Part shown: positions 35,990-36,290 of the stretch, one piece after another
Numbering within the stretch: the first letter of the stretch is position 1
How the letters are laid out: every line of letters starts with the position of its first letter
Virus record (IMG/VR): IMGVR_UViG_3300013426_000016
Span: 139,857 to 203,856 of that record
Source of the DNA: a virus
Taxonomy: Duplodnaviria > Caudoviricetes
Direction: 5' to 3' (one strand)
Length of the DNA: 64,000 nt
Notes under the pieces: generated by a model
The model's database searches: none
What the model saw: the letters and a program-made list of their open reading frames with translations, nothing else
Told to the model about the DNA's origin: nothing
Made by a program: the position numbers and the translations under genes

Positions 35990-36290
35990 GGCCCGTTGTT
36001 GGAACTGGTAGAGGTCTGCCCATTACAATGTTAATGAATTGCTTCAAATTCGGTATCAGTTAGATAAGACATTTTTGTACGAATAAGCTGACTAAGAAAG
36101 CCTGATATACCAGAAATGGTAAGTAGTGGTAATACCGAGCTAAGCCTTTTTAAGGAAAGTGTAGAGACTAGACGGAGCACTAGAAGATATAGTCCGAAGA
36201 TAAATAAAAATTTATCAAAATTCAAGACAAAACGGTCTTAAAAACCGTTTCCAAGCATTTGGAGTGCGTGTTCAAATCACGTACGGGCCA
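35990..36290 (+). tRNA. tRNA-Leu (TAA) interrupted in the D-loop by a group I intron
   Basis: Exons 35990-36009 and 36225-36290 give GGCCCGT/ACGGGCC acceptor, TTG-GAACTGGTAGA-CAA D-arm, ACGGT-CTTAAAA-ACCGT, long variable arm, TTCAAAT T-loop. Confidence 0.9.
36010..36224 (+). ncRNA. Group I intron, 215 nt, apparent terminal A
   Basis: GTAGAGACTAGACGG and AAGATATAGTCC (P7), P9 hairpin GATAAAT/ATTTATC, IGS GTCTGCC. Confidence 0.88.

What the first reader, a model, noticed from the sequence alone, without database searches (positions are those of the whole stretch)
35990..36290. Group I intron in the D-loop of tRNA-Leu(UAA), apparently ending in omega-A
Seen: IGS GUCU-G-CC pairs with the 5' exon GGU (U.G wobble at 36009) and the 3' exon AGAC. 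This fixes a splice that restores the canonical Leu D-loop GAACUGGUAGA and makes A36224 the last intron base. Splicing after the nearby G36226 would delete two D-loop bases. Established: classical bacterial tRNA group I introns sit in the anticodon loop and almost all end in G, with terminal A known only as rare exceptions. Standard tRNA finders would probably miss this gene.
Basis: partly seen in the sequence, partly recalled or inferred. Interest (0 to 1): 0.85.

Follow-up and report, generated by a model that had tools for sequence, protein, structure and literature searches.

The report
Phage leucine tRNA D-loop intron
A gut phage's only leucine tRNA gene is split in its D-loop, not the usual anticodon loop, by a small self-splicing-type (group I) intron that has lost one core hairpin and whose last base is A where nearly all such introns need G, yet intron and tRNA both look kept by selection.

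Summary
Window 35990-36290 is a tRNA-Leu(UAA) gene split after D-loop U20 (U36009) by a 215-nt ORF-less group I intron (36010-36224). ARAGORN and the Rfam tRNA model miss the gene. Rfam's intron model scores 21.5 bits, below its cut-off of 50.

I found five further distinct relatives at the same D-loop site. The fold is strongly supported: 97.6% of cells pair, and 20 pairs show compensatory changes against about 5 in shuffles.

In three relatives (L116, L142, L141) the base before the 3' exon is G. In the window, L127 and L139 it is A. The two A lineages differ at 18 paired positions and no substitution breaks a pair, so intron and tRNA appear functional. The P7 G-binding pair is unchanged.

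The A lineages have a 3-bp P9.0 abutting the A. They also have a G-C pair that holds the nearby G36226 in P10. P8 is absent in the window, L127, L139 and L116; L141 and L142 keep a 4-5 bp stub.

An AGA repeat at both junctions means sequence alone cannot fix the cut sites, and no RNA data exist.

The tRNA sits in a mobile cassette with an HNH endonuclease gene. Sister strains carry other tRNA-Leu(UAA) alleles there. This scan noted a G-ending D-loop intron on other DNA before.

The parts
35954..36348 (+). Variable cassette: tRNA-Leu(UAA) with its D-loop intron, plus the stub of an HNH endonuclease gene
   Evidence: Contigs of sister strains leave the window sequence at 35953 and rejoin it at 36349. 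L125, L119 and L122 carry a different tRNA-Leu(UAA) between the same flanks.
35990..36009 (+). 5' exon: acceptor 5' strand (35990-35996), U8 G9, D-stem 5' strand UUG (35999-36001), and the D-loop up to G18 G19 U20 (36007-36009)
   Evidence: acceptor and D stems covary.
36010..36224 (+). Group I intron, 215 nt, no ORF
   Evidence: Rfam RF00028 at 21.5 bits. Family alignment A1 and pair counts. An identical copy occurs in 7 of 10 kin contigs.
36007..36020 (+). P1 hairpin GGUAG / CUGCC with the U36009.G36018 wobble. The internal guide is 36014-36020. GUCU (36014-36017) also pairs with the 3' exon AGAC to form P10.
   Evidence: In one search the pair 36011-36016 is G-C here and A-U in L116.
36021..36036 (+). 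P2: CAUUA / UAAUG
   Evidence: Three of its five pairs show compensatory changes.
36040..36045 (+). P3 5' strand UGCUUC, pairing with GGAGCA at 36174-36179
   Evidence: invariant in the four sequences of A1.
36049..36139 (+). P4-P5 domain. P4 is 36049-36055 / 36133-36139. P5 is 36056-36061 / 36086-36091. The P5a/b arm spans 36100-36130 with a GAAA loop at 36113-36116.
36145..36155 (+). P6: CCUU / AAGG
   Evidence: P6 is longer in L116 and one pair covaries.
36164..36170 (+). P7 5' strand GAGACUA. A36165 is bulged. G36166 pairs with C36194, which corresponds to the guanosine-binding pair of other group I introns.
   Evidence: Rfam alignment to the conserved core. The strand is invariant in all four rows of A1. 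The match to Tetrahymena G264-C311 rests on established knowledge.
36180..36183 (+). The place where P8 should be: only CUAG lies between the P3 3' strand and J8/7 (36184-36189)
   Evidence: The Rfam alignment shows 0 bases against 59 model positions here. L127 has CAAAG and L116 has CAUUAG. L142 and L141 keep 4-5 bp hairpins.
36190..36195 (+). P7 3' strand UAGUCC
36196..36223 (+). P9.0 (GAA 36196-36198 with UUC 36221-36223) enclosing P9 (36199-36205 / 36210-36216, loop AAAA)
   Evidence: P9 has three compensatory pairs. The outer P9.0 pair is G-C here and A-U in L116.
36224..36224 (+). The terminal-G (omega) position, here A
   Evidence: Column 245 of alignment A1 reads A in the window, L127 and L139, and G in L116. 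By junction inspection it is G in L142 and L141.
36225..36290 (+). 3' exon: AGA of the D-loop, D-stem 3' strand CAA (36228-36230), anticodon arm with UAA at 36239-36241, long variable arm, T arm, acceptor 3' strand, and discriminator A36290. No CCA is encoded.
   Evidence: all stems covary.
36311..36347 (+). Remnant (the first 37 nt) of an HNH/NUMOD homing-endonuclease gene that is complete in kin contigs
   Evidence: L117 and L124 carry the whole gene here, and L116, L127 and L139 carry homologues, all with in-frame TGA codons. Pfam gives NUMOD1 at 44 bits in L116 and a weak HNH match in L117.

Best explanation
This is a functional tRNA-Leu(UAA) gene of a roughly 157-kb AT-rich crAss-like phage. 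It is interrupted in the D-loop, right after G18 G19 U20, by a minimal group I intron.

Proposed mechanism:
- The intron's guide sequence pairs with the nearly universal Leu D-loop sequence GGU / AGAC. GGU with GCC forms P1, with the U.G wobble at U36009. AGAC with GUCU forms P10.
- Free guanosine bound at the unchanged P7 pocket (G36166-C36194) attacks after U36009.
- U36009 then attacks the bond between A36224 and A36225. This restores GAACUGGU|AGA and releases a 215-nt intron that ends in A.

The pocket is still built for G. I therefore infer that in this lineage the 3' splice site is held in place mainly by helices: a 3-bp Watson-Crick P9.0 (GAA/UUC) that abuts the A, and a 4-bp Watson-Crick P10. 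The G-C pair in P10 also keeps the nearby G36226 out of the pocket. P8 has been lost entirely.

The gene is part of a mobile cassette spread by a neighbouring HNH homing endonuclease. That gene is deleted to a stub in this strain.

Shown: the fold, the insertion site, the family, the A/G difference at the omega column, and the selection on both RNAs.
Inferred: the exact cut sites and how an A is tolerated.
For: (1) Group I core. The conserved core around P3, P4, P6 and P7 matches Rfam RF00028. The MFE fold recovers P1, P2, P3, P4, P5, P6 and P9.

(2) Relatives at the same D-loop site. These are L116, L127, L139, L142/L143 and L141. On alignment A1, 97.6% of cells pair and 20 pairs have double changes, against 4.9 in shuffles and 1-2 in slid controls.

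(3) Register in the relatives.
- L116 and L142 begin AAAUG, so no AGA repeat blurs their 5' cut site. Their P10 is 5-6 bp (AGACAC/GUGUUU in L116, AGACA/UGUUU in L142), and the base before the 3' exon is G.
- L141 ends G|AAACAC, so it has no G two bases downstream.
- The window's A36224 aligns with these G's.

(4) P1 geometry is the same in all members: three exon pairs, the U.G wobble as the third pair, and no J1/2 linker. A different first cut site in the A lineages is therefore unlikely.

(5) The window and L127, both with A, differ at 18 paired columns. Seven pairs changed on both sides, three on one side, and none was broken by substitution. The changes lie in intron helices P2 and P9 and in tRNA stems.

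(6) The identical 301-nt gene occurs in 7 of 10 kin contigs, all from different samples, so the A is not an assembly error.

(7) The spliced product is a normal tRNA-Leu.

(8) The phage needs this tRNA. TTA is 48% of Leu codons in its core, and ARAGORN finds no other Leu tRNA in the record.

(9) A natural intron ending in A that splices correctly in vivo exists: ND5-717 of a sea anemone (PMC8146996).
Against: - No RNA evidence. No RNA run was listed as holding the locus.
- The AGA repeat means the same product would arise with both cuts shifted by two bases, making G36226 the terminal G.
- The G-binding pair is unchanged. From established Tetrahymena work (Price and Cech 1988; Been and Perrotta 1991; recalled, not read here), a terminal A with a wild-type pocket blocks exon ligation in vitro.
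- The A state is seen in only two diverged lineages. A recombined patch could have spread it recently.
- The compensation by P9.0 and P10 rests on five sequences.
Confidence: 0.5

Rival explanations
1. Fallback to the next G. The first step occurs after U36009 as usual. Because A36224 binds the pocket poorly, G36226 enters it instead. The ligated tRNA then reads GGU|ACAA and has a D-loop two bases shorter (9 nt).
For: G36226 is present in the window, L127, L116 and L142. The G-binding pair is unchanged. From memory of the Tetrahymena literature, terminal-G mutants use nearby G's. ARAGORN still calls the 84-nt product tRNA-Leu.
Against: - It cannot be the family rule. L141 has A at that place, and L116 and L142 have a long P10 in the other register.
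- In the window G36226 is paired to C36016 within P10, and the shifted P10 has mismatches.
- The close relatives L116 and L142 would then make an 11-nt loop while the window makes 9.
Confidence: 0.15
2. Both splice sites are shifted by two bases. The 5' cut falls after G36011, at a G-C pair rather than the U.G wobble. The 3' cut falls after G36226, a true terminal G. The product is the same canonical tRNA.
For: The intron begins AGA and the 3' exon begins AGA, so this register is equally consistent with the DNA and keeps the terminal G. It also explains why intron position +2 became G together with the loss of G at 36224.
Against: - The U.G wobble is kept as the third P1 pair, and the P1/J1/2/P2 geometry is identical to the G-ending relatives. 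Nothing would move the docked helix by two pairs.
- The new cut site would be a Watson-Crick G-C pair closing a 4-nt loop.
- P9.0 abuts 36224, not 36226.
- From established knowledge, the wobble pair determines the first-step site (Doudna et al. 1989; Barfod and Cech 1989).
Confidence: 0.1
3. A crippled intron. The G-to-A change blocks exon ligation, so the tRNA is made poorly or not at all, and the cassette persists only because the linked homing endonuclease spreads it.
For: The terminal A sits with a G-specific pocket, and P8 is absent. The endonuclease gene is decayed to a stub in the window. Sister strains carry other tRNA-Leu(UAA) alleles.
Against: - All 18 substitutions in paired columns between the two A lineages preserve pairing, in both intron and tRNA.
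- The allele is the commonest at this locus, at 7 of 10 places.
- It is the only Leu tRNA found in a genome that uses TTA for 48% of Leu codons.
Confidence: 0.1

Closest known systems
[quoted passage not shown]
   Same: A small, ORF-less group I intron in a tRNA gene. P1 has three exon pairs and a U.G wobble. The same conserved core strands occur around P7. The host tRNA is again tRNA-Leu(UAA).
   Different: - The insertion is in the D-loop after U20, not in the anticodon loop. Williams' method tests only the 8 anticodon-loop positions. Reviews place bacterial tRNA introns next to the anticodon (PMC4033280) and knew of none in phage tRNA genes (PMC3984707).
- The terminal base is A.
- There is no P8.
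- It scores below Rfam's threshold.
- Subgroup membership was not tested with a subgroup model.
Hexacoral mitochondrial ND5-717 group I intron (Stichodactyla haddoni; PMC8146996)
   Same: A natural group I intron whose last base is A instead of the otherwise universal G. RNA-seq there shows correct exon ligation.
   Different: That intron is mitochondrial, lies in a protein gene, is very large with genes inside P8, and probably depends on proteins. The intron here is a 215-nt phage tRNA intron without P8. Splicing was not observed here.
Free-standing homing endonucleases next to intron-bearing or tRNA genes: F-CphI with the cyanophage psbA intron (PMC6083498), T4 SegB in the tRNA cluster (PMC2330249), T4 mobE/I-TevIII (PMC2790892)
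   Same: An endonuclease gene lies just outside the interrupted gene. Alleles with and without the element alternate at one locus among strains. [quoted passage not shown]
   Different: The cleavage site and any homing activity are untested. In the window the gene is reduced to 37 nt.
Group I introns in the T-loop of tmRNA genes (cited in Williams 2020)
   Same: A group I intron in a tRNA-like gene, outside the anticodon loop.
   Different: The host RNA and the loop differ. I am not aware of any reported loss of the terminal G or of P8 there.

Membership tests
Group I intron (Rfam RF00028) | P1 helix in which the last exon base is U in a U.G wobble with the internal guide | tested here: met
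   U36009.G36018 lies within GGUAG/CUGCC. The wobble is invariant and the pair above it covaries in A1.
Group I intron (Rfam RF00028) | P3-P7 pseudoknotted core with P4-P6 and the conserved strands around P7 and J8/7 | tested here: met
   Alignment to the Rfam consensus. P3, P4, P5, P6 and P7 are 96-100% paired across the family.
Group I intron (Rfam RF00028) | Score at or above the curated gathering threshold | tested here: not met
   21.5 bits against 50. Relatives give no match at E <= 0.01.
Group I intron (Rfam RF00028) | Terminal G (omega-G) before the 3' splice site | tested here: not met
   A36224 stands in the column that holds G in L116, L142 and L141. A G lies two bases downstream, and its use cannot be excluded.
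Group I intron (Rfam RF00028) | P8 hairpin between the P3 3' strand and J8/7 | tested here: not met
   Only CUAG (36180-36183) is present, 0 bases against 59 model positions. P8 is also absent in L127, L139 and L116. L141 and L142 have 4-5 bp stubs.
Group I intron (Rfam RF00028) | Guanosine-dependent self-splicing | not testable with these tools
   This needs in vitro transcription and a splicing assay. No RNA run was listed as holding the locus.
Subgroup IC3 bacterial tRNA introns | Insertion in the anticodon loop of a tRNA | tested here: not met
   The anticodon loop CUUAAAA (36237-36243) is intact. The intron lies between U20 and the following A of the D-loop.
Subgroup IC3 bacterial tRNA introns | Assignment by a subgroup-specific model or phylogeny | not tested
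   No subgroup models were available. The resemblance to Azoarcus core strands is from memory only.
tRNA-Leu(UAA), class II tRNA | Cloverleaf with a 3-bp D stem, an 11-nt D-loop containing GGUAGA, a long variable arm and the anticodon UAA | tested here: met
   ARAGORN calls the in silico spliced 86-nt RNA tRNA-Leu(taa). All stems covary.
Homing-endonuclease cassette (free-standing HNH beside the interrupted gene) | An intact endonuclease gene adjacent to the element | tested here: not met
   The window keeps only 36311-36347. The gene is intact, with TGA read as a residue, in L117, L124, L116, L127 and L139.
Homing-endonuclease cassette (free-standing HNH beside the interrupted gene) | Cleavage of alleles that lack the element | not testable with these tools
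   This needs a nuclease assay on the type-A tRNA-Leu allele and on an intron-less type-B allele.

The most novel reading that the evidence does not exclude
A natural phage group I ribozyme ligates exons with a terminal A in an unaltered guanosine pocket and without any P8. It defines its 3' splice site through P9.0 and P10 instead of the terminal G. It sits at a tRNA position, the D-loop, where self-splicing introns have not been described.
Probability: 0.45. Interest if true: 0.82.

Novelty: new variant of a known kind. Interest (0 to 1): 0.72.

Why it matters
[quoted passage not shown] A conserved family in the D-loop shows that phage tRNA sets are under-counted. Here the phage's only Leu tRNA, which reads its commonest Leu codon, is invisible to standard finders.

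The family also offers a natural matched comparison. Close relatives end in G or in A, and have a stub P8 or none. This makes two long-standing questions about the ribozyme directly testable with 215-236-nt RNAs:
- How much does the terminal G contribute to choosing the 3' splice site, compared with P9.0 and P10?
- Is P8 dispensable?

The locus also shows three competing tRNA-Leu(UAA) alleles: intron-less, anticodon-loop intron, and D-loop intron plus HNH gene. That points to endonuclease-driven turnover of phage tRNA genes.

Tried and rejected
- RNA evidence: no RNA holder was listed for the locus. The four holders are contigs of one study. Only X2 carries the identical stretch, and no joints were seen.
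- Junction pattern TGGTAGAGGTCTGCC...AAATTCGG: nothing in viral contigs.
- Core-block pattern CTTCAAATTCGG...GGTAATACCGAG: nothing in viral contigs.
- Synteny through neighbouring proteins in IMG/VR: ClpP gave only relatives at 57% identity or less, the 135-aa ORF gave none, and the Ro60-like protein gave 51% or less.
- BLASTN against the phage collection gave only five short core matches.
- The exact-protein look-up of L116's endonuclease fragment returned only the same contig.
- An nhmmer profile of the family found no further member among 141 held records.
- ARAGORN cannot discriminate between the 86-nt and 84-nt products.
- The idea that the conserved G two bases downstream is the family's true terminal G was rejected. 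L141 has A there, and L116 and L142 have 5-6 bp P10 helices in the other register.
- Literature searches for D-loop group I introns found none. This covers only the held open-access library.

Full report
**What is in the sequence**

Window 35990-36290 reads as a class II tRNA-Leu(UAA) gene with 215 bases inserted in its D-loop.
- The 5' exon (35990-36009) carries the acceptor strand, U8 G9, the D-stem strand UUG, and the D-loop as far as G18 G19 U20.
- The 3' exon (36225-36290) starts AGA and then carries the D-stem strand CAA. It continues with an intact anticodon arm (CUUAAAA, anticodon 36239-36241), a long variable arm, the T arm, the acceptor strand and the discriminator A.

ARAGORN and the Rfam tRNA model at gathering threshold do not report the gene. 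Joining U36009 to A36225 gives an 86-nt RNA that ARAGORN calls tRNA-Leu(taa).

**The insert is a group I intron**

Rfam's Intron_gpI model matches 35986-36216 at 21.5 bits (E = 0.0028 for the 501 bases searched; gathering score 50). The conserved core strands align almost letter for letter. An unconstrained fold recovers P1, P2, P3, P4, P5, P6 and P9.

The helices, in window coordinates:

| Element | 5' strand | 3' strand | Note |
|---|---|---|---|
| P1 | 36007-36011 | 36016-36020 | U36009.G36018 wobble |
| P2 | 36021-36025 | 36032-36036 | |
| P3 | 36040-36045 | 36174-36179 | |
| P4 | 36049-36055 | 36133-36139 | |
| P5 | 36056-36061 | 36086-36091 | extra arm with a GAAA loop |
| P6 | 36145-36148 | 36152-36155 | |
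| P7 | 36164-36170 | 36190-36195 | A36165 bulged |
| P9.0 | 36196-36198 | 36221-36223 | |
| P9 | 36199-36205 | 36210-36216 | |

- The pair G36166-C36194 sits where other group I introns have the guanosine-binding pair.
- P10 forms between GUCU (36014-36017) and the exon AGAC (36225-36228).
- Where P8 should be there are only four bases, CUAG (36180-36183). The Rfam alignment shows 0 bases against 59 model positions there.

**Context**

The window is the end of a 203,856-base IMG/VR record. An AT-rich core (about 31% G+C) lies between G+C-rich ends. The core is bracketed by a 613-base exact direct repeat 157,187 bases apart. Earlier notes of this scan call it a Zeta-type crAss-like phage. That group is known for many group I introns in protein genes (PMC7886860).

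In the core, TTA makes up 48% of leucine codons, against 3% in the G+C-rich ends. ARAGORN finds no other Leu tRNA in the record.

**Relatives**

Pattern scans, and look-ups through neighbouring proteins, gave these results.
- The identical 301-nt gene occurs in 7 of 10 kin contigs from different samples.
- L127 and L139 are 88% identical to the window gene.
- L116, on a contig binned with a Faecalibacillus MAG, is 68% identical and has the same ClpP / tRNA-Leu / HNH gene order.
- L142/L143 and L141 are more distant.

All sit after G18 G19 U20 of a tRNA-Leu(UAA).

On the alignment of four distinct sequences (A1), 97.6% of cells form standard pairs, against 28-42% with slid partners. Twenty pairs have changes on both sides, against 4.9 +/- 1.9 in shuffles and 1-2 in slid controls. 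P1, P2, P5b, P6, P9.0, P9 and every tRNA stem covary.

**The last base of the intron**

AGA stands at both junctions of the window gene, so four pairs of cut sites give the same tRNA. The relatives resolve the register.
- L116 and L142 begin AAAUG, so there is no AGA repeat at their 5' junction. They have 5-6 bp P10 helices (AGACAC/GUGUUU in L116, AGACA/UGUUU in L142). They end ...G|AGACAC.
- L141 ends ...G|AAACAC, so it has no G two bases downstream.

The family's terminal-base column therefore reads G, G, G in these three. It reads A in the window, L127 and L139.

P1 geometry is identical in all members: three exon pairs, the wobble as the third pair, and no J1/2 linker. This argues that the first cut is after U20 in all of them.

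**Are the A lineages alive?**

The window and L127 differ at 18 paired columns.
- Seven pairs changed on both sides: two in P2, two in P9, two in the variable arm and one in the T stem.
- Three pairs changed on one side and still pair.
- None is broken by substitution.

Selection has therefore kept both the intron fold and the tRNA fold in lineages that carry the A.

The G-binding pair is unchanged. Two other things differ between the two kinds.
- The A members have a 3-bp Watson-Crick P9.0 (GAA/UUC) directly abutting the A. The G members have a weak P9.0.
- The A members pair exon G36226 with C36016 in P10. The G members have G.U or A-U at that place.

I read these as compensation. The helices take over 3' splice-site definition and keep the nearby G out of the pocket. 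This step is inference from five sequences.

A precedent exists. The sea-anemone ND5-717 intron ends in A and is spliced correctly according to RNA-seq (PMC8146996).

**Rivals**

1. G36226 is used as a fallback, giving a 9-nt D-loop. ARAGORN still accepts that product.
2. Both cuts are shifted by two bases, which would preserve a terminal G but place the first cut at a G-C pair.
3. The intron is crippled. argues against this.

No RNA holder was listed, so none of these can be excluded by data.

**Loss of P8**

L142 (CACU/AGUG) and L141 (CAUAU/AUAUG) keep 4-5 bp hairpins. L116, L127, L139 and the window have only 4-6 unpaired bases there. The loss is therefore shared by diverged, apparently functional members.

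**Mobility**

In L117, L124, L116, L127 and L139 an HNH/NUMOD endonuclease gene with in-frame TGA codons starts about 20 bases after the tRNA. The window keeps its first 37 bases (36311-36347). The same endonuclease family lies 3' of uninterrupted tRNA-Leu(UAA) genes in other phages.

Sister strains carry a different tRNA-Leu(UAA) between the same flanks. It is intron-less in L125. In L119 and L122 it carries an intron at the classical U34/A35 site, with group-I-like core strands by eye only; Rfam gave no intron match in L119.

**Literature**

- Reviews place bacterial tRNA group I introns next to the anticodon (PMC4033280).
- One review states that all phage group I introns known in 2014 were in protein genes (PMC3984707).
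- Williams 2020 mapped 5,292 bacterial tRNA introns but tested only anticodon-loop positions. It found U at -1 and a terminal G in 98.5% of them.
- I found no description of a D-loop group I intron in the held library.
- This scan had already noted a G-ending D-loop intron in another genome. Its description fits L142. It had also noted an A-ending intron in a phage tRNA-Met gene.

**Verdict**

Noticed in passing
window 30981-31036 (+): A type III hammerhead ribozyme (Rfam RF00008, 52.1 bits, above the gathering score) lies about 590 bases downstream of tRNA-Met (30322-30395).
   Followed up: no
window 42197-42809; genome 24866-25478 and 182053-182665: A 613-base exact direct repeat, with further near-identity for about 250 bases, brackets the AT-rich 157,187-base unit. 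G+C jumps from about 31% to about 52% outside it. The record may be a circular phage genome joined to unrelated G+C-rich DNA through a shared segment, or a true insertion.
   Followed up: partly
L125:2241-2327; L119 and L122 about 1863-2330: Sister strains carry a different tRNA-Leu(UAA) at the same locus. In L125 it is intron-less. In L119 and L122 it is split by an intron of about 375 nt at the classical U34/A35 site that ends in G. That intron has group-I-like core strands by eye. Rfam gave no intron match at E <= 0.01 in L119; L122 was not searched.
   Followed up: partly
L129:2343-2417, L131:2327-2401, L134:255-340, L135:1172-1257, L136:1897-1982, L137:528-613: Homologues of the HNH/NUMOD endonuclease lie immediately 3' of uninterrupted tRNA-Leu(UAA) genes in several other phage contigs. 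This suggests an endonuclease family specialised on tRNA-Leu loci.
   Followed up: partly
L003, minus strand, about 2093-2205: An unrelated phage group I intron also lacks a P8 hairpin: 15 bases lie between the P7 5' strand and J8/7. Bases on either side of P3 may extend that helix instead.
   Followed up: no
L006 and L009, minus strand, near the matches: Group I introns with a 3-bp GNRA-capped P8 are followed by what look like tRNA 3' halves. ARAGORN does not call these genes, so they may be further intron-split phage tRNA genes.
   Followed up: no
genome 38494-38568 (outside the window): ARAGORN calls a tRNA with anticodon UCA (reported as tRNA-SeC). This fits the in-frame TGA codons in the HNH genes of kin contigs and suggests TGA is read as a residue in this phage group.
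   Followed up: no
genome 50109 and 51879 (+); 124715-126699 (-): Six further matches to the conserved J8/7-P7 strand of group I introns occur in the same record. At least some of the six have a normal P8.
   Followed up: no
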